This document shows, piece by piece, positions 4,709 to 34,179 of a DNA stretch of 64,000 nt; within the stretch, counting starts at the first letter, position 1; the number at the start of each line of letters is the position of its first letter. Under the pieces are notes generated by a model that did no database searches, had not been told where the DNA came from, and saw only the letters and a program-made list of their open reading frames with translations. Origin of the DNA: Candidatus Poriferihabitaceae bacterium (GTDB lineage: Bacteria; Pseudomonadota; Gammaproteobacteria; Arenicellales; Poriferihabitantaceae); NCBI GenBank assembly GCA_965203265.1, contig CBDBBV010000002.1, positions 1,810,773 to 1,874,772 of the forward strand, written 5' to 3'. Position numbers and translations under genes: made by a program.

Positions 4709-6058
4709 TTAAGAAAGTTCTTTGACTTTCTGCAAAAAAGATTCTATCGCTTTTATTGTTTCCTGCACGATTTGTCTTCCAAGTTCTTTCCCCTGTTTTT
4801 CATCTGTCAGTTGTTGTACAAAATTTTCATCTTCATAGCGGAAATCATTATATTTGCAGCTCCCAAAATCTTTTGTGAGCAACCAGTACTTATTTTTACC
4901 CATACCTTCAATTTCGAGCGATACTTTACGATATTTCTGGTAAGGCTTATCCAAATCATCATATTTATCAATCCATTTTCTATTATCGGCACTCAGTTTA
5001 CTTCCATAACCATAACCACAATCATATTCTTCCTCTTCTTTTCTTATTTCTTTTCCCTCGAGAAGGGAAAAATTTAGCTGCACAGTCTGACACTCATTTT
5101 TGAAAAGTATTAACACAATAACATTTATTCCATCTCCAGCAAGAATTTTCCAACCAATTATCGACTCTTCCTTCTCGTTCCAATTTTCATACCGAACCCC
5201 AACATACTGTTTGAAAAAATCTCCATTTTCCTTAACTGCTTCACGGATATAGTTCGATAATCGATTCTTCAATTCTTTTTGAAAAAACTCAATGAAATTC
5301 TCCAAACAGGGAACCAGTTTGAAGTTTCCGTTCTTGAAAAAAGGATTGTTTTTCATAGAAAATTCCTCCAAATGAGTTAGATAAGTCTGACCAGTAAGTT
5401 TTTTCAGTAACGATTGATACTGAAACAAAATTCCCTTGATATGTGAAATGTCTGCTTCTTCTTTCTCCTTCATGCATATCGCTAACCATTTGATAATATG
5501 ATCCTTGTATGAAACCCGTAAAACTTTTTCCTTTTCAAGCCCTTCTCCAAGCATATATTCACTCGGCTCTCGTCCATCAAGCGTAAGATAAATTATCGCT
5601 ATATTTTCATCTTTATAGTTCTTTTTGGCATAGGAATAATATTTTCCAATCTGCCGTTCTTGTTCCCTTGCACCTATTTTGTTCTCAATCACAACGAATT
5701 TGTCAGCGTTTTTAATCAAAATATCTATAAACCCATCACCTGTATACGACTCTTTGGTTACTCTGAACTTAGCAAGTTCGGTTTCAGAAAATTCCCAAGT
5801 GAATTGACTCGCGTGGGTTCTCTGCAACCTCTCGAAAAATAGCCGCAAGAAAACCGTGCCTTGGATATGCGATCCATCTGGGTTCAACAAATCGGTCAAC
5901 AGGGCCGAATGCGTTTTCTCTTCATCTCTCTCCCTATCCAAAATCGAAAATATATTGAAATGCTCGCCCGTATCCCGCGCACATTCACCATATTTTTCCT
6001 TGATCAACCTGAATTGATCAAGGAAGCCTTCCAGATCACCTGTCTGTTGAATTTCCAT
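4709..6058 (-). CDS. PD-(D/E)XK nuclease family protein, paralog B, with an uncharacterised C-terminal half
   Basis: 449 aa and AT-rich. It carries the N-terminal block FNIFSIL...HSALLTDLLNP.GSH.QG and the catalytic D...ExK signature GFIDILIKNADKFVVIENK followed by QERQIGKYY. It resembles the family I recall as Pfam PDDEXK_4 (unverified). Confidence 0.75.
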   Translation of the reverse strand: MEIQQTGDLEGFLDQFRLIKEKYGECARDTGEHFNIFSILDRERDEEKTHSALLTDLLNPDGSHIQGTVFLRLFFERLQRTHASQFTWEFSETELAKFRVTKESYTGDGFIDILIKNADKFVVIENKIGAREQERQIGKYYSYAKKNYKDENIAIIYLTLDGREPSEYMLGEGLEKEKVLRVSYKDHIIKWLAICMKEKEEADISHIKGILFQYQSLLKKLTGQTYLTHLEEFSMKNNPFFKNGNFKLVPCLENFIEFFQKELKNRLSNYIREAVKENGDFFKQYVGVRYENWNEKEESIIGWKILAGDGINVIVLILFKNECQTVQLNFSLLEGKEIRKEEEEYDCGYGYGSKLSADNRKWIDKYDDLDKPYQKYRKVSLEIEGMGKNKYWLLTKDFGSCKYNDFRYEDENFVQQLTDEKQGKELGRQIVQETIKAIESFLQKVKELS

Positions 6059-6112
6059 CGCTACTACTCACATCAATGTCCGCCATTCGTTCGGAAACAC
6101 ATTTCGTGGCTA

Positions 6113-7384
6113 TTATTGGACTTGTTCCAGAAATGATTTTATCGATCTTGTTACTGTGGCAACGATTTCTTTCCCAAACTTCCTTCCCCTCTCTGCATTT
6201 TGCAATTTTCCTGCTTCATACTCCCAATTACGCGAGCTCATTGTGGCCCCTCTAACCGAATCATTTTTCATGCCTTCAACGTTAAGTGCCGCCTTAAGAT
6301 ATTTCTGGCAAGTTGCATTTGGGTACTTATCCATGCGGTGTCCCGATATATTACCATCATCTGTCTCGATATTGTCTCCCTCATAAAGGTAAAGAGAAAA
6401 ATAACATTTATCCTTCCAATGATCCAACAAGGCAATCACATTTACACCATCGCTATAATCAATTTTCCATCTCCCCAATACTTCATTATCCTTCCATTTC
6501 TTCAATTCTTCTTTAGTACTTCTTACTTTAATTTTCACGTATTTGTTGAAAAAATCTCTCTCATTTTCCGAATCGATCGCTTCGCGAATATATTGCCAAC
6601 ACCGAGTGGGCAATTCCTTCTTGAAAGATGCGATAGATTTCTCCAAAGCACCAACCAATTTATGGTTGTCGTTCTTGAAAAAAAGATCGTTGGTTTCCAT
6701 AATAAATTCCTCACGATAAGTTTGGTCGGTAAGTGCTTTCAGTAACGATTGATACTGAAACAAGGTTTCTCTGATATGTGGAATGCGCACCACTTCTTTC
6801 AAACAGCCATCCAACCACTTGATAATATGATCTCGATATGAAACCCGCAAAACTTCGTCTTCTCCAAGTTTTGTGCCGCGGGTATATTCACTGGCTTCAT
6901 CCCCCTCAAGCGTGAGGTAGATTACCACTATATTCTCATCCGCATAATTTTCTTTGGCATAATCATAATATCGACCAAGTTGCCGTTCCTGATCCCCCGC
7001 ATAAATCTTGTTCTCAATCACAACGCATTTGTCGTTTTTTTCGATGAGAATATCTATGCGCCCACCGCCCACATCGGCCTCTGCAATTACACTGAACTGA
7101 GCAAGTTCGATTTCGGACAATTCCCATTTGACTCGACTCTCGCAATCTTCCCGCAACATCTCGAAAAACAACCGCAAGAAAACCGTGCCCTGATCGTGCG
7201 ACCCTTTCGGATTCAACAAATCGGCAAGTAGCGCAGAATGCCGTATCTCCCTGCTCTCCATGCCCAAGATCGAAAACACATTGAAATTCTCACCCGTAAC
7301 CCGCGCCACAGCATCATATTTTTCCTTGATCAACCTGAATTGACGAAGGAAATTTTCCATCTTTTCAACCTGTTCGATTTCCAT
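6113..7384 (-). CDS. PD-(D/E)XK nuclease family protein, paralog A, with an uncharacterised C-terminal half
   Basis: Start taken at MEIEQVEKMENFLRQF (ATG 7384) inside track ORF 6113..7468. It has the same motifs as paralog B (FNVFSIL, RIDILIEKNDKCVVIENK, QERQLGRYY). The ATG lies 7 nt after the methyltransferase stop. Confidence 0.75.
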   Translation of the reverse strand: MEIEQVEKMENFLRQFRLIKEKYDAVARVTGENFNVFSILGMESREIRHSALLADLLNPKGSHDQGTVFLRLFFEMLREDCESRVKWELSEIELAQFSVIAEADVGGGRIDILIEKNDKCVVIENKIYAGDQERQLGRYYDYAKENYADENIVVIYLTLEGDEASEYTRGTKLGEDEVLRVSYRDHIIKWLDGCLKEVVRIPHIRETLFQYQSLLKALTDQTYREEFIMETNDLFFKNDNHKLVGALEKSIASFKKELPTRCWQYIREAIDSENERDFFNKYVKIKVRSTKEELKKWKDNEVLGRWKIDYSDGVNVIALLDHWKDKCYFSLYLYEGDNIETDDGNISGHRMDKYPNATCQKYLKAALNVEGMKNDSVRGATMSSRNWEYEAGKLQNAERGRKFGKEIVATVTRSIKSFLEQVQ

Positions 7385-7391
7385 AGCAGTT

Positions 7392-8228
7392 CTACACTCC
7401 CAACAACGGCGCGGTCGGATCGTAAATAGGCTTGCCCATCGGTCGGGTGCGCAGCTCCCCCGCGTCAAGCGCCCGTACCCGCGCCCGGGCTATCTGCACA
7501 TATTCTTCCACGATATCGCAGCCATAGCCTCGTCGTCCATGCTTGAGTGCGGCGATCACCGCCGATCCCACACCCATATACGGATCGAAGACGGCATCAT
7601 CTTCGTCGGTCATCGAAAGGATCAGGCGTTCGACTAGTTCGACGGGGAACTGGCATGGGTGAATCGTCTTCTCCGGATGATTGTTTTTGACATTCGGAAA
7701 CTCCCACACATCACTCGGATTCTTTCCCTTGGGGTTGCCCGACAACTTCCCCGCATTCGGCCCCTTGAAATGTTTCTTGTTCGGGTATTTGGACGGTACC
7801 CGAATCGGATCCAGATGCCAGATGTAGTCGTTGCCCTTGGTCCACCAATTGATCGTCTCGTAGCGACCGGAAAGTCGCTTGGTGCAATGCAAGCCGTGTC
7901 CGAAATGCCAGATGATTCGATTGCGAAGTTTCAGCCCTTGGGCGCGGAACAATGGATACAACAGCGTATCGAGCGGCACGATCTCTCCGCTTTCAACATA
8001 GTTGCCGACCTGCCAGCAGAGCGAACCTCGACCGTGCAACAGGCGGGCGCATTCGCGAATAACCTGCTCCTGCGCCGCGAGATATTCGTCCAGAGTTGAT
8101 TTCCCTTCGTAGGATTTGCCGAGATTGTAGGGTGGGGAAGTAACGATCAGATTGAACATCCCATCGGGCAGACGCGCCATGAATGGCACATTGTCCGAAC
8201 AGGCGAGGACGACTCGCTCACGCATCAT
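7392..8228 (-). CDS. beta-class DNA amino-methyltransferase (SPPY type, probably N4-cytosine or N6-adenine)
   Basis: Start taken at MMRERVV (8228) inside track ORF 7392..8330. Motif IV is LIVTSPPYNLGK, motif X is IHPCQFPVELVERLI and motif I is VFDPYMGVGSA. This motif order and wording resemble the M.PvuII-like group. Confidence 0.85.
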   Translation of the reverse strand: MMRERVVLACSDNVPFMARLPDGMFNLIVTSPPYNLGKSYEGKSTLDEYLAAQEQVIRECARLLHGRGSLCWQVGNYVESGEIVPLDTLLYPLFRAQGLKLRNRIIWHFGHGLHCTKRLSGRYETINWWTKGNDYIWHLDPIRVPSKYPNKKHFKGPNAGKLSGNPKGKNPSDVWEFPNVKNNHPEKTIHPCQFPVELVERLILSMTDEDDAVFDPYMGVGSAVIAALKHGRRGYGCDIVEEYVQIARARVRALDAGELRTRPMGKPIYDPTAPLLGV

Positions 8229-8307
8229 GGTTCGGCATCGGCACAGCAACCGCCTCCCGCGCCGGCAGGATCCGCGTTGCCACTCCAGCGACAACGCCCC
8301 GCATCCC

Positions 8308-28235: not shown

Positions 28236-29003
28236 TCAGTATTTGAAGCCGATGTGGAGGGCGACTATTCCGCCGCTCAGATTGTGTATGCGGATGTCTT
28301 CGAATCCGGCTTGCGCCATCATGTTTTTCAGAGTTTGTTGATCCGGATGCTTGCGGATGGACTCGACCAGATAGCGGTAACTGTGCTCATCGCCGACCAC
28401 CCGCTTGCCGAGGGCGGGGATGACGGCGAAGGACCAGCGATCGTATAGTTTTGCCAGCAGAGGCAATAGCGGCTTGGAGAATTCCAGCAGCAGCAGGCGG
28501 CCGCCGGGTCGGATTACCCGATACAACGAGGCGAGGGCGTCCTGCTTGCGGGTTACATTGCGCAGGCCGAAGGAGATGGCGGCGCAGTGGAAGCAGTCGG
28601 CGGCGAAACTCGGTTTTTCGGCGTCGCAGAGGGCGTAGCCGATGTTGCCGATGAGGCCGGCGTCGATCAGGTTGCGCCGGCCCTGAGCCAACATGGCCGC
28701 ATTGATGTCGGTGAACGCCACCAAGCCGCCCGCGCCGACCTGCCGAGCAAAGTGCTTGGCCATGTCGCCACTACCGGCGGCCACATCCAGAGCCAGATCG
28801 CCGGGGCGCAAGGCACTCTGCGAGGCGGCAAAGCGCTTCCACAGGCGATGGACGCCGAAGCTCATCAGGTCGTTCATCAGGTCGTAGCGACCGGCGACCG
28901 AGCGGAACACATCGGCGACCATGCCGGCCTTGTCGTCGGCGTCCACCGAACGAAAGCCAAAATGGGTGGTGCGCCCCCGTTCCTGACCGGCCTGCTCCGC
29001 CAT
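28236..29003 (-). CDS. ubiE: demethylmenaquinone/ubiquinone C-methyltransferase
   Basis: Start taken at MAEQAGQERGRTTHFGFRSV (29003). FRSVAGRYDLMNDLMSFGVHRLWKR and LDVAAGSGD are canonical UbiE blocks. Confidence 0.9.
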   Translation of the reverse strand: MAEQAGQERGRTTHFGFRSVDADDKAGMVADVFRSVAGRYDLMNDLMSFGVHRLWKRFAASQSALRPGDLALDVAAGSGDMAKHFARQVGAGGLVAFTDINAAMLAQGRRNLIDAGLIGNIGYALCDAEKPSFAADCFHCAAISFGLRNVTRKQDALASLYRVIRPGGRLLLLEFSKPLLPLLAKLYDRWSFAVIPALGKRVVGDEHSYRYLVESIRKHPDQQTLKNMMAQAGFEDIRIHNLSGGIVALHIGFKY

Positions 29004-29019
29004 GACCACCACCCCGCCG

Positions 29020-29385
29020 TCAGGAATCCGCCGCGCGCTCGTGCCCGGCCTCGCGCAGCTGTTCGAGATAACGCCGCCAGTTCTCCGCCTGATTCCTGCC
29101 GAGGGAATGGAGCGTATCCCAAGAATAAATGCCGGTATCGTGGCCGTCATCGAACACCGGCTTGATGGCGTAATTGCCGATCGGCTCGATTTTGTCGATA
29201 TTGACCTCCTCCTTGCCGACCTGCAACACGGCTTGACCGGGGCCATGCCCTTGCACCTCGGCCGAGGGAGAATGCACCCGCAGGTATTCGCAAGTCATCT
29301 CGTAGGATGTGCCGTCGTCGAAGGATACCGTGAGGATTCTGGCTCTGCGGTTGAGGTTGATTTCGGTGGGGGTGGGTTTGCTCAT
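29020..29385 (-). CDS. DUF971 (gamma-butyrobetaine hydroxylase N-terminal-like) protein
   Basis: Start taken at MSKPTPTEINL (29385) within track ORF 29020..29547. FDDGTSYEMTCEYLRVHSPSAEV and FDDGHDTGIYSWDTL are typical of the family. Confidence 0.7.
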   Translation of the reverse strand: MSKPTPTEINLNRRARILTVSFDDGTSYEMTCEYLRVHSPSAEVQGHGPGQAVLQVGKEEVNIDKIEPIGNYAIKPVFDDGHDTGIYSWDTLHSLGRNQAENWRRYLEQLREAGHERAADS

Positions 29386-29568
29386 TGGTTTGGCCGGTTG
29401 TGTCGATTTTACAGATTTTCCGATAGTTGTTGTATTTCCGCTTGCGTGTGGTGCGGCTCTTGCATTTCTATGGCTTTCCACGCGCTTATGTAGGAAATTT
29501 TGTCGATGAGTTTTCCTAGTTGTTTGGCGGTTAATTTTGGGAATCATACCGATAACTTGACAAGGAAT

Positions 29569-29733
29569 TCACTGTTTTTTCTCTTTGATTTTGACTTTTC
29601 CATCCTTACCTACTCGCATAACGAACTTCCTTTCCAGACCTTTATTCGTAGGTACGGGTTCTCTCCCGTGCTCTGCTTTGCCCATGCCCAGCAACGCCTT
29701 CGCCGCTTTATCTAGTTTCTTTCTACTAGTCAT
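29569..29733 (-). CDS. 54-aa basic small ORF downstream of methyltransferase-HNH gene 1 (sORF1)
   Basis: My own translation, since it falls below the track length cutoff: MTSRKKLDKAAKALLGMGKAEHGREPVPTNKGLERKFVMRVGKDGKVKIKEKKQ. Its ATG shares one nt with the upstream TGA. The first 31 codons are duplicated at 31021-31113. Confidence 0.45.
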   Translation of the reverse strand: MTSRKKLDKAAKALLGMGKAEHGREPVPTNKGLERKFVMRVGKDGKVKIKEKKQ

Positions 29734-30956
29734 CACACTAACATTTGCAAGCGCGTTTTCAAATAGTCCATACCTCTATCGCCCTTTATACGATTACATG
29801 AACCACACAGCAATTGAAGGTTCTCCAAGTGATCGGTTCCGCCCTTCTTGCGTGATATTATATGATCTACTTCCAAATTCCTATGATTGAACTCTGTATT
29901 ACATCCAGCGCATTTCCCGTATTGCTCACCAAATAGAAACTTCTTGTTCTCTGGCGAATTATACGCCCGCAACTTACCTAAATCAGTGCGTTTCGGTATA
30001 TCCGTCCTATGCGTTATATCCCTGAATATACCCTGCGCGTCCTTTATACGGCTAACTACTAATTCTGAAGCCTTACTCGATATATCTATCCCTACCCAGT
30101 TTCGTTGTAAATAATCAGCCGCAACGCAAGTAGTCGCGCATCCGCAAAATGGATCCAGTACTACATCGCCTTCGTTGCTTGACGCTCTGATTATTCGTGA
30201 TAGAAGTTTCAAAGGCTTCTGCGTAGGGTAACCTGTACGCTCTTTTGATAAAGAATTCAAATAAGGTATATCCCACCAATCATTACATATCATCCCTTCA
30301 TCAGGATAATATGTTCTCTTTTTACCGGCATCAATCCGAATCCTACATCTGCGACCTTTATCATCTACTTGCTTATAATGACTATCCAAGTATTTCTGAC
30401 TAACGGGTATGCGATAATCTCCCCAATAAAACTTATCCGATTTAGTATAAAGAAATATCAAATCATGCTTCTTGGCGAAAAACTTCTTCGCTCTACCAGA
30501 AGTAGAATAGCACCATACAATCTCGTTTCTGAAATACTTGCGTCCGAAAACAGCGTCCATTACCAATTTCAAATAATGACTCATGGTCGGATCACAATGC
30601 AAATAGATTGAACCAGTAGGTTTCAACAATCTTTTCATCTCTAATATCCTTGCCGCCATATAAACCAAATACGATTTATCGCTCTTGGTCATTGCCGCTA
30701 ACAACACCCGATAAAGAACCGGATGTTTGTTCTCTATAAGATTTATCCATTCAACATCTACCTCCGACAACGACCATGTATCCTTGAACTCAGCACCAGC
30801 CGCTTTACTACCTATTGGCGCTGCGTAATTAGCATTTGAATTAAATGGCGGATCCAAATATATCAAGTCAACAGATTCACTATTCATCCCTCGCATAATG
30901 TACAAACAATCTCCCGTCCATATCGTCTTGTTCGCCCAGTTTTGTTTCTTACTCAT
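29733..30956 (-). CDS. beta-class DNA amino-methyltransferase fused to a C-terminal HNH nuclease (copy 1)
   Basis: Start taken at MSKKQNW (30956) within track ORF 29733..30989; 407 aa. It has DPPF (motif IV), GYPTQKP (motif X), VLDPFCGCATT (motif I), then CAGC...EVDHIISRKKGGTDHLENLQLLCGSCNRIKG (HNH). AT-rich. Confidence 0.85.
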   Translation of the reverse strand: MSKKQNWANKTIWTGDCLYIMRGMNSESVDLIYLDPPFNSNANYAAPIGSKAAGAEFKDTWSLSEVDVEWINLIENKHPVLYRVLLAAMTKSDKSYLVYMAARILEMKRLLKPTGSIYLHCDPTMSHYLKLVMDAVFGRKYFRNEIVWCYSTSGRAKKFFAKKHDLIFLYTKSDKFYWGDYRIPVSQKYLDSHYKQVDDKGRRCRIRIDAGKKRTYYPDEGMICNDWWDIPYLNSLSKERTGYPTQKPLKLLSRIIRASSNEGDVVLDPFCGCATTCVAADYLQRNWVGIDISSKASELVVSRIKDAQGIFRDITHRTDIPKRTDLGKLRAYNSPENKKFLFGEQYGKCAGCNTEFNHRNLEVDHIISRKKGGTDHLENLQLLCGSCNRIKGDRGMDYLKTRLQMLV

Positions 30957-31113
30957 TTCTTGCTCCCCCCTCCGCCAACCACCCGGCAACCTGCTCGGCG
31001 TAATAGGTCAATACCAGATCTTTATTCGTAGGTACGGGTTCGCTCCTGTGCTCTGCTTTGCCCATGCCCAGCAACGCCTTCGCCGCTTTATCTAGTTTCT
31101 TTCTACTAGTCAT
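30949..31113 (-). CDS. chimeric 54-aa small ORF: 5' part of sORF fused to a copy of the hemB 3' end (sORF2)
   Basis: My own translation: [54 protein letters not shown]. The residues after position 34 repeat the HemB C-terminus. It overlaps both neighbouring genes. Whether it is expressed is unknown. Confidence 0.3.
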   Translation of the reverse strand: MTSRKKLDKAAKALLGMGKAEHRSEPVPTNKDLVLTYYAEQVAGWLAEGGARNE

Positions 31114-32291
31114 CACACTAACATTTGCAAGCGTGTTTTCAAATAGTCCATACCTCTATCGCCCTTTATACGATTACATGAACCGCATAACAACTGTAGG
31201 TTTTCCAAGTGATCGGTTCCGCCTTTCTTTCGTGAAATTATATGATCTACTTCTAAATTTCGTGATTCGAAATGCGTCCCGCAACCCGCGCAATTCCCGT
31301 CTTGCTCTCCATATAGTATCTTTCGATTTGCTGGAGAATTGTAGGCCGGAAGATTTCCGAGATCGGTTCTCTTCGGTATATCCGTCCTATGCGTTATATC
31401 CCTGAATATACCCTGCGCGTCCTTTATACGGCTAACTACTAATTCCGAAGCCTTATTCGATATATCTATCCCTACCCAATTACGCTGTAAATAATCCGCC
31501 GCAACGCAAGTAGTTGCGCATCCGCAAAATGGATCCAGTACTACATCGCCTTCATTGCTTGACGCCTTGATCACCCTCCCTAACAACGCCAATGGCTTTT
31601 GTGTGGGATAACCCGTGCGTTCTTTATCCATAGTATTCAACGCCGCCAATGTTATTACATCATCCGGCGTCTTACCTCTAGGCGGTTCTTTCCCTTGTTT
31701 TTTGTAACGCCAAGTCGTCATACCACTCTCATATGGAATCAGTATATCGTCCCTTCTAAAAACACCTTTACCGGAAATTACATACCAAAGCAATATATCA
31801 TGCGACTTAGCCCATTGATATTTACCGCGAGAAGCATTTTTATAGTACCAAACAACTTCGTTCCTGAAATTTTTGCGTCCAAAAATAGCATCCATCACTA
31901 ATTTCAAGTAATGACTCATAGTCGGATCACAATGCAAATAGATTGAACCAGTAGGTTTCAACAACCTTTTCATCTCTAATATCCTTGCCGCCATATAAAC
32001 CAAATACGATTTATCGCTCTTGGCTATTGCCGCTAACAACACACGATAAAGGGATGGATATTTGTTCTCAATAAGATTTATCCATTCAACATCTACCTCA
32101 TCCAGCGTCCAAGTATCCTTGAACTCCGCACCAGCCGCTTTACTACCTATCGGTGCGGCATAATTCGCGTTTGAATTGAACGGCGGATCCAAATATATCA
32201 AATCAACAGATTCCGAATTCATCCCCCGCATAATATACAAACAATCCCCCGTCCATATAGTCTTGTTTGCCCAGTTTTGTTTCTTGCTCAT
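31113..32291 (-). CDS. beta-class DNA amino-methyltransferase fused to a C-terminal HNH nuclease (copy 2)
   Basis: Start taken at MSKKQNW (32291) within track ORF 31113..32336; 392 aa. It has the same motif set as copy 1 but a different central block. Its ATG lies 1 nt after the hemB stop. Confidence 0.85.
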   Translation of the reverse strand: MSKKQNWANKTIWTGDCLYIMRGMNSESVDLIYLDPPFNSNANYAAPIGSKAAGAEFKDTWTLDEVDVEWINLIENKYPSLYRVLLAAIAKSDKSYLVYMAARILEMKRLLKPTGSIYLHCDPTMSHYLKLVMDAIFGRKNFRNEVVWYYKNASRGKYQWAKSHDILLWYVISGKGVFRRDDILIPYESGMTTWRYKKQGKEPPRGKTPDDVITLAALNTMDKERTGYPTQKPLALLGRVIKASSNEGDVVLDPFCGCATTCVAADYLQRNWVGIDISNKASELVVSRIKDAQGIFRDITHRTDIPKRTDLGNLPAYNSPANRKILYGEQDGNCAGCGTHFESRNLEVDHIISRKKGGTDHLENLQLLCGSCNRIKGDRGMDYLKTRLQMLV

Positions 32292-32292
32292 T

Positions 32293-33330
<1,038 letters not shown>

Positions 33331-34179
33331 CTATTTTCCCGGCACTGCTTCCGCCGGGGCGGCTGAGGTGGCCGAGACGGCTGAGGCGGCCGGCGGCGGT
33401 TTTCCGGCGGGTTTGCGCGGCGGCGGGGACGCGCTTTCCGAGGAAGGGGTTATGCGGCTGATCTGCCCACCGGCGATGATGGTGTGGGTTTCCTCGTCGA
33501 GGGTTTGCGCGGCGGTCTCCAGCGTGTCCATTTCCAAAGGGCGCATTTCCAGATCGACGATGGCGCAAAACTTCTGCCGGATTTCCTCGGCCTCCCCCAC
33601 GGCCAACACCGTGCGCAACTTGTGCTGCGCCTTGTAATAGGCCAGCAACGGCGCGATTTGCTCGCGATAGGCTCCGACCTCGGCCACCGCCGCGCGGAGA
33701 TCGCCGCTTGCGGCGGCCAGTTCGCCGCCGCAAACGTCGCACTCGTCGGCGATTTTCGGCGGGGCGCAGCGGAGATGGTAGGCGGCGCCGCATTGGGTGC
33801 ATTGCAAGTGGCCGCCGAGGTGTTCTTCCAGCGTGTCGTCGTCGAGTTCGACATGGATCGCAATCTGCAGGGTGCGGCCGAACATGCCGAGCAGCGTGTC
33901 GAGCGCCTGCGCCTGCGGGATGTTGCCGGGGAAGCCGTCTATGATGAATCCGCGCCTGCAATCGCGCGCGCGCAAACGCTCATCCAACAGGGCGATGACG
34001 GCCTCGTCGCTAGCCGCCGCCACCTGAGGCGGGTGCGAGTCGCCCGCTCCCCCATTCCCGTCCGCCGCCGCTCGCAACAGGATATGCGGTGATATGTGCG
34101 GCACCCGATACCGCGCCGCCAGTGATTTCGCCTGCACTTCCTTGCCGGAAGCCGACGCGCCGAGGATGGCAATTCGCAT
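33331..34179 (-). CDS. adenylate kinase-like protein with atypical P-loop and a Pro/Ala-rich C-terminal extension
   Basis: 282 aa. The core is AK-like (FIIDGFPGNIPQAQAL) with a Cys4 lid (CTQC...CDVC). The P-loop reads GASASGKEV instead of GxPGxGKGT, and there are about 65 extra C-terminal residues. Confidence 0.6.
   Translation of the reverse strand: MRIAILGASASGKEVQAKSLAARYRVPHISPHILLRAAADGNGGAGDSHPPQVAAASDEAVIALLDERLRARDCRRGFIIDGFPGNIPQAQALDTLLGMFGRTLQIAIHVELDDDTLEEHLGGHLQCTQCGAAYHLRCAPPKIADECDVCGGELAAASGDLRAAVAEVGAYREQIAPLLAYYKAQHKLRTVLAVGEAEEIRQKFCAIVDLEMRPLEMDTLETAAQTLDEETHTIIAGGQISRITPSSESASPPPRKPAGKPPPAASAVSATSAAPAEAVPGK

What the first reader, a model, noticed from the sequence alone, without database searches (positions are those of the whole stretch)
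30243..30515. The two MTase-HNH paralogs are mosaics: near-identical catalytic ends with an unrelated block at the beta-class TRD position
Seen by hand alignment of the repeat units. Blocks 29641-29800 vs 31021-31180, 29990-30190 vs 31370-31570 and 30560-31010 vs 31905-32345 differ at only a few percent of positions (my estimate, not computed). In contrast, aa ~148-238 of copy 1 (30243-30515) and aa ~148-223 of copy 2 (31623-31850) are essentially unalignable: WCYSTSGRAKKFFAKKHDLIFLYTKSDKFYWGDYRIPVSQKYLDSHYKQVDDKGRRCRIRIDAGKKRTYYPDEGMICNDWWDIPYLNSL versus WYYKNASRGKYQWAKSHDILLWYVISGKGVFRRDDILIPYESGMTTWRYKKQGKEPPRGKTPDDVITLAALNTM. The two blocks differ in length by 15 aa. A milder divergence patch covers the CxxC part of the HNH (about 29800-29990).
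Established: in beta-class MTases the target-recognition domain lies between motif VIII and motif X, which is exactly the replaced block.
Inference: the pattern reflects cassette-like TRD exchange, or gene conversion homogenising the flanks, rather than duplication followed by uniform drift. The locus may act as a specificity-diversifying pair.
Basis: partly seen in the sequence, partly recalled or inferred. Interest (0 to 1): 0.7.

Follow-up and report, generated by a model that had tools for sequence, protein, structure and literature searches.

The report
Stacked methylase-nuclease alleles with swapped DNA readers
Two neighbouring genes for a fused DNA methylase and HNH nuclease share a conserved scaffold but carry unrelated DNA-reading modules, a known way for restriction-type enzymes to change target, seen here in an apparently undescribed enzyme family.

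Summary
Copy 1 (29733-30956, 407 aa) and copy 2 (31113-32291, 392 aa), both on the minus strand, are beta-class N6_N4 MTase + HNH fusions.

- **Identity.** Outside the central block the units are 87.6% identical in DNA (scaffold 91.5% in protein). Inside it (aa 149-237 vs 149-222) they are 41% identical, with no BLASTP hit.
- **What the block is.** It holds every element that reads DNA in the solved M.BceJIV-DNA complex.
- **Exchange, not drift.** A third allele at the same hemB-downstream slot in a ~95%-identical strain is a three-way mosaic with its own block. TRD A and TRD B each have closer relatives in distant scaffolds than in each other. Block borders coincide in 13 pairs from at least 7 lineages.
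- **Corrections.** The ends are not near-identical in DNA: dS is 0.55-0.78, against 0.07-0.12 for host hemB. So these are old alleles kept alike by purifying selection, not recent duplicates homogenised by conversion. They were stacked by an event that duplicated 56 nt of the hemB 3' end.
- **No switch.** No recombinase, inverted repeats or simple repeats were found.

TRD swapping is known for Type IIG and Type III enzymes. This fusion family appears undescribed, and its function as a single-chain restriction-modification enzyme is inferred.

The parts
32293..33321 (-). hemB (porphobilinogen synthase, ALAD). Its stop codon lies 1 nt before the ATG of copy 2. Gene callers in related contigs use a 322-aa product (32293-33261).
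   Evidence: ORF translation. The orthologues in L001 and L003 carry PF00490 ALAD and sit 1 nt before the MTase-HNH gene. Alignment.
31113..32291 (-). Copy 2 = allele B. Beta-class MTase + HNH fusion, 392 aa. MTase domain aa 29-284, HNH aa 334-379 (31155-31292).
   Evidence: Pfam hits. AF2 model with pLDDT 84.1. Foldseek best matches are M.BceJIV, RsrI, CcrM and MboIIA. Orthologue P0004 in L001 is 99% identical in protein.
31626..31847 (-). Variable DNA-reading block of copy 2 (aa 149-222, TRD type B).
   Evidence: No BLASTP hit to the copy 1 block. HMMER finds 29 relatives, 59-72% identical among the best, in beta MTases fused to HNH, T5orf172 or Mrr_cat nucleases.
31014..31112 (-). Tail of unit 2, about 100 nt after the stop codon. 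It holds the start of a small ORF and is 98% identical to the tail of unit 1.
   Evidence: The tail and its small ORF occur only in this lineage (window, L001-L003), not in other family members.
30958..31013 (-). Duplicated 3' end of hemB (56 nt, 53/56 identical, stop TGA changed to AGA). It forms the junction between the two units.
29733..30956 (-). Copy 1 = allele A. Beta-class MTase + HNH fusion, 407 aa. MTase domain aa 29-299, HNH aa 349-394 (29775-29912).
   Evidence: Pfam hits. AF2 model with pLDDT 84.7. Foldseek matches.
30246..30512 (-). Variable DNA-reading block of copy 1 (aa 149-237, TRD type A). This is the core of the finding.
   Evidence: 41% nt identity to copy 2 against 87.6% elsewhere. 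It contains the equivalents of M.BceJIV loop-45 (aa 153-155), TRD (186-223, R205 = Arg180) and loop-6F (232-236). Type A blocks are 67-80% identical in relatives whose scaffolds are only 47-76% identical.
29877..29981 (-). Second exchanged module: the linker plus first CxxC of the HNH domain (aa 326-360; copy 2 equivalent 31257-31361).
   Evidence: 75% nt identity over 29800-29990. pS 0.79 and dN 0.29. Allele C switches from A-like to B-like here, with the max-chi-square breakpoint between 30066 and 29991, p <= 2e-4.
29634..29732 (-). Tail of unit 1. Unit homology ends at 29634.
29020..29547 (-). DUF971 (GBBH-like_N) gene, the distal flank of the insertion slot.
   Evidence: ORF. PF06155 on the L001 orthologue.

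Best explanation
The region holds two allelic versions of one modular gene, stacked head to tail directly downstream of hemB. Each encodes a ~400-aa fusion of a beta-class, probably N6-adenine, DNA methyltransferase and a C-terminal HNH nuclease.

The scaffold (aa 1-148 and from motif X to the end) is under strong purifying selection. The ~75-90-aa block between them carries all the DNA-reading elements and has been replaced as a unit. Recombination occurs in the two most conserved motif-coding stretches, FRNE(I/V)VW and ERxGYPTQKP. A second, smaller module (linker plus first zinc knuckle of the HNH) has also been exchanged.

In the host population the hemB|DUF971 slot is polymorphic, with at least three reading-module alleles A, B and C in strains ~95% identical. 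The window strain acquired the second allele by homologous recombination with DNA from another strain. That event left a 56-nt duplicate of the hemB 3' end. It was either Campbell-type integration of a circularised fragment, or a tandem duplication followed by allelic replacement in one copy.

Inferred, not shown: the protein acts as a single-chain restriction-modification enzyme whose one reading module directs both methylation and HNH cutting. A module swap would then change both activities together, and stacking alleles would add specificities.
For: Architecture and fold.

HNH catalytic and zinc residues (C349, C352, D364, H365, N379, C384, C387, N388) are invariant in 120 homologues.

The block equals the reading elements of M.BceJIV.

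Non-uniform identity.

Old alleles:
- Scaffold dS is 0.55-0.78 and omega 0.05-0.1.
- Host hemB dS is 0.07-0.12.
- B vs its orthologue in L001 gives dS 0.06-0.08.

Same slot, three alleles: L001 carries B alone, and L003 carries C.

Allele C is A-like (98-100%) in the N scaffold and the motif X-I-III block. It has its own TRD and is B-like (96-98%) in the linker/HNH patch. Informative sites are 32:6, 33:2 and 4:42.

TRD A and TRD B each have closer relatives in foreign scaffolds than in each other.

Block borders coincide (left 133-149, mostly 144-149; right 232-242) in 13 pairs from at least 7 lineages.

Tandem arrays with a near-identical scaffold and different TRDs occur in L060 (x3), L064 (x4) and L077 (x3).

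Flank-duplicating stacking also appears in L001. There a different 4-gene island follows a 295-nt hemB 3' copy, joined at a 13-nt microhomology.

Precedents for both phenomena in restriction-modification genes: PMC2853133.
Against: - No methylome or enzymology exists, so whether the two blocks give different motifs, and whether the HNH cuts unmethylated sites, is unknown.
- No empty hemB|DUF971 site was found, so the insertion history is inferred from only three related contigs.
- An ancient in-situ duplication with differential loss in the other strains would give the same present-day structure.
- I could not inspect model coordinates. Mapping the block to the DNA-binding surface rests on sequence alignment to one solved complex at ~22% identity.
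- The contig is probably metagenome-derived, and the tandem arrangement was not checked against reads.
Confidence: 0.7

Rival explanations
1. An ancient in-situ tandem duplication was followed by replacement of the reading block in one copy. Related strains later lost one copy each by recombination between the direct repeats.
For: The structure is a simple tandem repeat with one junction. Direct repeats delete easily. Arrays such as L064 show that duplication inside a genome does occur.
Against: Scaffold dS of 0.55-0.78 is 5-8 times the host divergence, so the duplication would long predate the strain split yet survive intact only here. Allele C has a third TRD and a mosaic scaffold, which needs exchange with other alleles anyway. 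The 56-nt hemB fragment differs at 3 positions (5%), about the level of between-strain hemB divergence in DNA.
Confidence: 0.15
2. A recent duplication was followed by rapid point-mutation divergence (positive selection) of the TRD, with the ends kept identical by gene conversion.
For: Short low-dS patches exist (codons 76-125 dS 0.18; 306-325 dS 0.28), as do 97-100% identical stretches.
Against: The blocks give no BLASTP hit, differ by 15 aa and have different predicted secondary structure. Each block is 59-80% identical to blocks in distant scaffolds. Most of the scaffold has dS 0.5-0.8, so it is not homogenised.
Confidence: 0.03
3. The proteins are orphan epigenetic methyltransferases like CcrM or M.BceJIV. 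On this view the HNH domain serves mobility or repair rather than restriction, and TRD variety changes regulation, not defence.
For: The best structural matches include the orphan regulators M.BceJIV and CcrM. No separate restriction gene is a conserved neighbour in 80 loci. The gene is translationally coupled to a housekeeping gene.
Against: The nuclease catalytic residues are invariant. The C-terminal nuclease is interchangeable among HNH, T5orf172 and Mrr_cat on related MTase scaffolds, including proteins that share TRD type B. That pattern points to selection for 'a nuclease', as in restriction enzymes. Frequent horizontal transfer, low GC (42% vs 63%) and multi-copy arrays are typical of defence genes.
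Confidence: 0.2
4. Assembly artefact: two strain alleles of a single-copy locus were joined in tandem by the assembler.
For: The population is demonstrably polymorphic at this slot, and the source is probably a metagenome-derived genome.
Against: The junction carries a diverged, stop-less copy of the hemB 3' end and a distinct tail, not an exact repeat. An independent contig, L001, shows the same kind of flank-duplicating stacking with different cargo. The contig is 2.26 Mb long.
Confidence: 0.03

Closest known systems
Type IIG / IIC single-polypeptide restriction-modification enzymes (MmeI family and relatives), including allelic TRD diversity between closely related genomes (Furuta et al. 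2010, PMC2853133; MmeI family, PMC2731913)
   Same: Nuclease, methyltransferase and one target-recognition module lie in one polypeptide. Alleles at one locus differ only in the recognition module. A module swap would change cutting and protection together.
   Different: Those enzymes are ~900-1000 aa, with an N-terminal PD-(D/E)XK nuclease, a gamma-class MTase and a C-terminal TRD. Here the protein is ~400 aa, with a beta-class MTase, the TRD in the middle and a C-terminal HNH. Cleavage has not been demonstrated.
Type III mod genes with a variable central TRD (EcoP15I-type Mod; allelic mod variants)
   Same: Beta-class MTase with conserved 5' and 3' parts and a replaceable central recognition region. 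Mod subunits (4zcf, 6k0w, 7dsu) are among the structural hits.
   Different: No res partner gene and no phase-variable simple repeats. The nuclease is fused rather than a separate helicase-nuclease subunit.
Small beta-class N6-adenine MTases with solved DNA complexes (M.BceJIV 8urk/9c3u, CcrM 6pbd, M.RsrI, M.MboIIA)
   Same: Same fold and motif order (IV...VIII, TRD, X, I-III). TM-score relative to the target is 0.79-0.82 for M.BceJIV. The DNA-reading loops and TRD fall in the variable block.
   Different: ~22% identity. Those proteins have no nuclease domain. M.BceJIV and CcrM are orphan regulators.
Insertion of restriction-modification genes with long target duplication (Nobusato/Furuta/Kobayashi; PMC2853133)
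   Same: A direct repeat of tens of bp overlapping the 3' end of a flanking gene, with no mobility gene in the insert (56 nt of hemB here; 46 bp in the H. influenzae examples).
   Different: Here the repeat separates two alleles of the same gene, so the outcome is an allele stack. No empty site is available for comparison.
IS1595-family transposons with passenger genes
   Same: In other genomes the same MTase-HNH gene lies with an IS1595 transposase between GGGAATTAT... terminal inverted repeats. L029 also has an 8-bp target duplication.
   Different: The window copies have no transposase and no such inverted repeats. They appear to move by homologous recombination via the flanks.

Membership tests
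Beta-class amino (N6A/N4C) DNA methyltransferase (PF01555) | Pfam N6_N4_Mtase above the gathering score, with motif order IV (DPPF) ... VIII, TRD, X (PTQKP), I (FCGCAT) | tested here: met
   165 and 149 bits against a cut-off of 26.7. The motif order is visible in the sequences and alignment.
Beta-class amino (N6A/N4C) DNA methyltransferase (PF01555) | Fold matches solved beta-class MTases | tested here: met
   Foldseek E = 1e-17 to 1e-19 to M.BceJIV, RsrI, CcrM and MboIIA. TM-score relative to the target is up to 0.82.
Beta-class amino (N6A/N4C) DNA methyltransferase (PF01555) | Base specificity (N6-adenine vs N4-cytosine) and recognition motif | tested here: inconclusive
   The DPPF motif and the best matches to m6A enzymes favour N6-adenine. 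The recognition motifs cannot be derived with these tools.
HNH / His-Me finger nuclease (PF01844) | Pfam HNH above the gathering score, with conserved D-H...N...N and two CxxC zinc knuckles | tested here: met
   50 and 55 bits against a cut-off of 21.4. C349, C352, D364, H365, N379, C384, C387 and N388 are invariant in 120 sequences.
HNH / His-Me finger nuclease (PF01844) | Nuclease activity | not testable with these tools
   Needs biochemistry.
Type IIG/IIC single-chain restriction-modification enzyme | Nuclease and MTase domains in one polypeptide with a single recognition module | tested here: met
   Domain architecture. One variable reading block per protein.
Type IIG/IIC single-chain restriction-modification enzyme | MmeI-like layout: N-terminal PD-(D/E)XK nuclease, gamma-class MTase, C-terminal TRD | tested here: not met
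   Beta-class MTase with a central TRD and a C-terminal HNH. It is therefore not a member of the MmeI family, although it may work like one.
Type IIG/IIC single-chain restriction-modification enzyme | Site-dependent cleavage blocked by its own methylation | not testable with these tools
   Needs expression and cleavage assays.
Type III restriction-modification (Mod/Res) | Adjacent res helicase-nuclease gene | tested here: not met
   The neighbours are hemB and DUF971. Among 80 loci the only recurrent neighbour is an IS1595 transposase.
Phase-variable or shufflon-type specificity switch | Inverted repeats plus a site-specific recombinase, or simple-sequence repeat tracts in the gene | tested here: not met
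   The copies are direct repeats. Only weak inverted repeats are present (73-82% complementary, none bracketing the TRDs). There are no SSR tracts, and no recombinase is evident among the neighbouring ORFs as I read their translations; they were not scanned against Pfam.
Insertion with long target duplication (restriction-modification-linked) | Direct repeat of at least 30 bp of target sequence bounding the inserted unit, with no mobility gene | tested here: met
   56-nt hemB 3' repeat, 53/56 identical, at 32293-32348 and 30958-31013.
Insertion with long target duplication (restriction-modification-linked) | Empty target site in a related genome | not tested
   No contig with hemB directly followed by DUF971 was recovered. 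The exact-pattern scan of metagenome contigs gave 0 hits.
IS1595-family transposon with passenger gene | DDE_Tnp_IS1595 transposase, terminal inverted repeats and an 8-bp target duplication around the unit | tested here: not met
   Absent from the window. Met in relatives: L029 has 33/33-nt IRs plus the direct repeat AAATCTTT, and L084 and L036 also have IRs.

The most novel reading that the evidence does not exclude
These genes may belong to an undescribed, very widespread family of compact (~400 aa) single-chain restriction-modification enzymes. More than 8000 database proteins match, and 585+ genome loci were found, many of them in MAGs of taxa named as sponge symbionts from many bacterial phyla and one archaeon.

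The family would be built from three exchangeable parts:
- a conserved beta-MTase scaffold;
- a plug-in DNA-reading cassette with fixed borders;
- a plug-in C-terminal nuclease (HNH, T5orf172/GIY-YIG-like or Mrr_cat).

The genes would spread on IS1595-type transposons and by flank homology, and accumulate in tandem arrays as multi-specificity defence.
Probability: 0.35. Interest if true: 0.7.

Novelty: new variant of a known kind. Interest (0 to 1): 0.5.

Why it matters
A fused MTase-nuclease that uses one reading module for both activities can change target in a single recombination step without killing its host. The MmeI family became a platform for engineering specificity for that reason.

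This family would be a much smaller (~400 aa) and very abundant version, with naturally defined cassette borders at aa ~148 and ~238. Dozens of natural reading modules could then be tested for motif prediction and enzyme engineering.

Ecologically, it would identify a concrete, horizontally shared defence gene behind the reported enrichment of DNA methylase and HNH domains in sponge microbiomes (PMC12284385, citing Fan 2012 and Horn 2016).

For this locus specifically, the value is modest. It is a clean, population-resolved example of TRD allele exchange and allele stacking.

Tried and rejected
- **Exact look-up of copy 1's contig**: not on record, so the source organism was not identified.
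- **Exact-pattern scan of metagenome contigs** with the hemB 3' end, to find more alleles or an empty site: 0 hits.
- **Word-indexed protein search with TRD B alone**: no candidates, although P0004 must match. The exhaustive HMMER search then found 29 relatives.
- **PADLOC and NCBIfam**: only generic Type II/III MTase and IscB/Cas9-HNH domain hits. No named defence system.
- **Rfam on 28500-33500**: nothing.
- **Promoter and terminator scan**: no more sites than in shuffles. Expression is probably by read-through from hemB.
- **The 54-aa ORF and conserved tail after each gene as a possible partner**: present only in this lineage, so rejected as a family component.
- **Conserved neighbour search in 80 loci for a separate nuclease or helicase**: none. 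The only recurrent neighbour is an IS1595 transposase.
- **IS1595 inverted-repeat motif at the window island edges**: no convincing match.
- **Phase-variation and shufflon signatures**: none.
- **Literature searches for a described beta-MTase-HNH fusion family**: none found in the held library. This does not exclude REBASE entries or subscription papers.
- **Single-linkage clustering of TRDs at 40% identity**: over-merged, because the first ~25 aa of the block are conserved. I relied on direct pairwise comparisons instead.
Full report
**1. What is in the sequence**

A 2.7-kb island of 42% GC lies between hemB (32293-33321, minus) and a DUF971 gene (29020-29547, minus), in a genome of about 63% GC. 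It consists of two head-to-tail units on the minus strand.

- Unit 2 lies next to hemB and spans 31014-32348. Unit 1 spans 29634-31013.
- Each unit begins with the last 56 nt of hemB. In unit 2 this is the real gene end. In unit 1 it is a copy, 53/56 identical, whose stop codon TGA has become AGA.
- A gene starts 1 nt after the hemB stop position in each unit: copy 2 at 31113-32291 (392 aa) and copy 1 at 29733-30956 (407 aa).
- Each unit ends with a ~100-nt tail that is 98% identical between units.
- Both proteins are PF01555 N6_N4_Mtase plus PF01844 HNH fusions. Public gene calls use the same lengths.

**2. Check of the observation**

| Region | Identity |
|---|---|
| 29634-30185 vs 31014-31565 | 89.2% |
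| 30507-31010 vs 31842-32345 | 89.9% |
| Between those (321 vs 276 nt) | no alignment |
| HNH patch 29800-29990 | 75.4% |
| Central block 30243-30515 | 50.5% (global alignment) |

- Matches inside vs outside the block are 113/273 vs 975/1113, p = 1e-53.
- 'Near-identical ends' is therefore true for protein (scaffold 91.5% identical) but overstated for DNA.
- 'Unalignable' applies from about aa 175 onward. The first ~25 residues of the block keep a common pattern.

**3. What the variable block is**

AlphaFold2 models of both proteins are confident (pLDDT 84.7 and 84.1, with the blocks mostly above 80). Their best PDB matches are beta-class N6-adenine MTases: the M.BceJIV-DNA complex, RsrI, the CcrM-DNA complex and MboIIA.

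The M.BceJIV paper states that in beta-class enzymes the TRD is inserted between motifs IV-VIII and X, I-III. It also states that DNA is read by loop-45, by the TRD (residues 167-194, including Arg180, Leu182, Phe183 and Trp188) and by loop-6F (Arg203, His205, Gln207) (PMC11380664).

Through the HMMER alignment these map to copy 1 as follows:

- loop-45 maps to residues 153-155;
- the TRD maps to residues 186-223, with R205 equivalent to Arg180;
- loop-6F maps to residues 232-236;
- Lys218 of motif X maps to K247, just outside the block.

The replaced segment is thus the complete DNA-reading apparatus, not only the formal TRD. I could not inspect the model coordinates, so this step is homology-based inference.

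**4. Exchange versus drift versus conversion**

*(a) Age of the scaffold.* Synonymous divergence between the two copies is 0.55 in the N scaffold and 0.78 in the C scaffold, with omega 0.05-0.1. Lower values occur only in short patches: codons 76-125 (0.18) and codons 306-325 (0.28). The HNH core has dN = 0.

For scale, host hemB has dS 0.07-0.12 between the window and two related metagenome contigs. Allele B vs its orthologue in L001 has dS 0.06-0.08. The two copies are therefore far older than the strain split. Their protein similarity reflects purifying selection, not recent homogenisation.

*(b) A third allele at the same slot.* The slot is occupied in relatives whose backbone is ~95% identical.

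- L001 carries allele B alone.
- L003 carries a third allele C (P0002, 429 aa) with a 110-aa block unrelated to A or B.
- Allele C is 98-100% identical to A across the N scaffold and the motif X-I-III block. It is 96-98% identical to B across the linker and first CxxC of the HNH.
- Informative sites are 32:6, 33:2 and 4:42. The max-chi-square breakpoint lies between 30066 and 29991 (p <= 2e-4).

*(c) Each block has closer relatives elsewhere.*

- Type A blocks are 67-80% identical in proteins whose scaffolds are only 47-76% identical to copy 1.
- Type B blocks, rare in this subfamily, are 59-72% identical in about 13 representatives, out of 29 hits among 1.84 billion representatives.
- Those MTase scaffolds carry HNH, T5orf172/MUG113 or Mrr_cat nucleases.

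*(d) Fixed borders.* In 13 pairs from at least 7 lineages with a closely similar scaffold but different blocks, the variable segment starts at copy 1 residues 133-149 (mostly 144-149) and ends at 232-242. Of 51 protein pairs with at least 90% identical scaffold, 18 have different block clusters.

These results support cassette-like exchange at the FRNE(I/V)VW and ERxGYPTQKP motif borders. They argue against divergence by point mutation.

**5. How the tandem arose**

The window junction joins the tail of unit 2 to hemB position -56. L001 shows the same kind of event with different cargo.

- After allele B and most of DUF971 there is a 295-nt copy of the hemB 3' end, then a 4-gene island, then DUF971 again.
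- The junction lies in a 13-nt microhomology.

Both structures fit two routes that I cannot separate:

- a circularised fragment [hemB 3' end - cargo - distal flank] from another strain integrating by a single homologous crossover;
- a microhomology-mediated tandem duplication followed by allelic replacement in one copy.

The pattern matches 'insertion with long target duplication' described for restriction-modification genes, including repeats overlapping the 3' ends of genes. The same paper reports allelic TRD diversity in Type IIG enzymes (PMC2853133).

**6. The wider family**

- The word-indexed search returned 8000 scored hits (its ceiling). The best 120 are full-length MTase-HNH proteins, and those with a reported BLASTP identity are 62-77% identical.
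The best 80 are mostly MAGs whose names indicate sponge symbionts (Poribacteria, Poriferihabitaceae, Porisulfidus) alongside many other phyla and one Nitrosopumilus. The sponge link rests on these names and on my memory of the bin naming. The pattern-based scan also favours close relatives of the query.
- Gene GC tracks host GC in most loci, so 42% against 63% here suggests a recent arrival in this lineage.
- Tandem arrays recur: L060 (3 copies, 3 blocks), L064 (4 copies, 3 blocks, scaffold dS 0.01-0.06) and L077 (3 copies with a T5orf172 nuclease instead of HNH).
- No partner gene is conserved. The only recurrent neighbour is an IS1595 transposase.

**7. Mechanism**

*Shown:* the architecture, the fold class, the conservation of catalytic residues, the modular replacement of the reading block, and allele stacking.

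*Inferred:* the protein is a single-chain restriction-modification enzyme whose one reading block serves both methylation and HNH cleavage. This would explain why blocks can be swapped freely, since no mismatch arises between separate R and M specificities. It would also explain why the nuclease type is interchangeable and why copies accumulate.

The main functional rival is an orphan regulatory MTase whose HNH has another role.

Nothing indicates a programmed switch. The repeats are direct, and there are no recombinase, bracketing inverted repeats or simple repeats. Recombination between the copies can only remove one of them.

**8. Novelty**

TRD replacement in conserved MTase scaffolds is established for Type I, Type III and Type IIG systems, so the phenomenon is known. 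I found no description of this beta-MTase-HNH fusion family or of its cassette borders, arrays or transposon form in the searchable literature. REBASE could not be consulted. I therefore rate it a new variant of a known kind, of moderate interest.

Noticed in passing
L029:3555-6512; also L084:3927-6727, L036:3936-6416, L072:4004-6214: In about 15 of 80 genome loci, and in one viral contig next to a tape-measure gene, an IS1595-family transposase lies directly beside the MTase-HNH gene. Terminal inverted repeats starting GGGAATTAT enclose both genes. L029 has 33/33-nt IRs flanked by an 8-bp direct repeat AAATCTTT. One mobile form of the family therefore looks like an IS1595-type transposon carrying the MTase-HNH as a passenger gene.
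   Followed up: partly
genome loci L004-L083: The closest relatives of this gene come almost entirely from MAGs whose names indicate marine-sponge symbionts. They span many bacterial phyla and one archaeon (Nitrosopumilus, L069). This suggests habitat-wide cross-phylum horizontal transfer. The sponge origin is inferred from organism and bin names only.
   Followed up: partly
L064:3472-9347, L060:3-3738, L077:12-3731: Other genomes carry tandem arrays of 3-4 copies with a nearly identical scaffold and different reading blocks. In L064 scaffold dS is 0.01-0.06. In L077 the C-terminal nuclease is T5orf172/MUG113 instead of HNH.
   Followed up: partly
proteins P0121-P0137: The copy 2 type of reading block occurs in beta-class MTases fused to three different C-terminal nucleases (HNH, T5orf172/MUG113, Mrr_cat).
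   Followed up: partly
L001:7527-13179: In a related strain the same hemB|DUF971 slot also holds a 4-gene island (424 aa, a 643-aa HATPase_c_3 protein, 287 aa, 288 aa; mostly without Pfam hits). It is preceded by a 295-nt copy of the hemB 3' end fused in frame to DUF971, with the junction in a 13-nt microhomology. The slot looks like a hotspot for variable, possibly defence-related cargo.
   Followed up: partly
window 4709-8231 (minus strand): A second low-GC island (46%) carries two tandem paralogous PDDEXK_4 nuclease genes (4709-6058 and 6113-7387) next to a beta-class MTase with an SPPY motif (7392-8231). This is another restriction-modification-like locus with tandem paralogs.
   Followed up: partly
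window 30762-30839 and 32097-32174 (aa 40-65 of both proteins): The loop right after the DPPF motif (NSNANYAAPIGSKAAGAEFKDTW) is almost invariant across 120 homologues, yet it is the only segment predicted with pLDDT below 50. It probably orders only on DNA or on the flipped base.
   Followed up: no
window 29569-29736 and 30949-31116 (minus strand): A small ORF (MTSRKKLDKAAKALLGMGKAEH...) overlaps each MTase-HNH stop codon (TGATGA) inside the 98%-identical tail. It is conserved in L001-L003 but absent from other family members. Its 3' half differs between the two units, so it may not be a real gene.
   Followed up: partly
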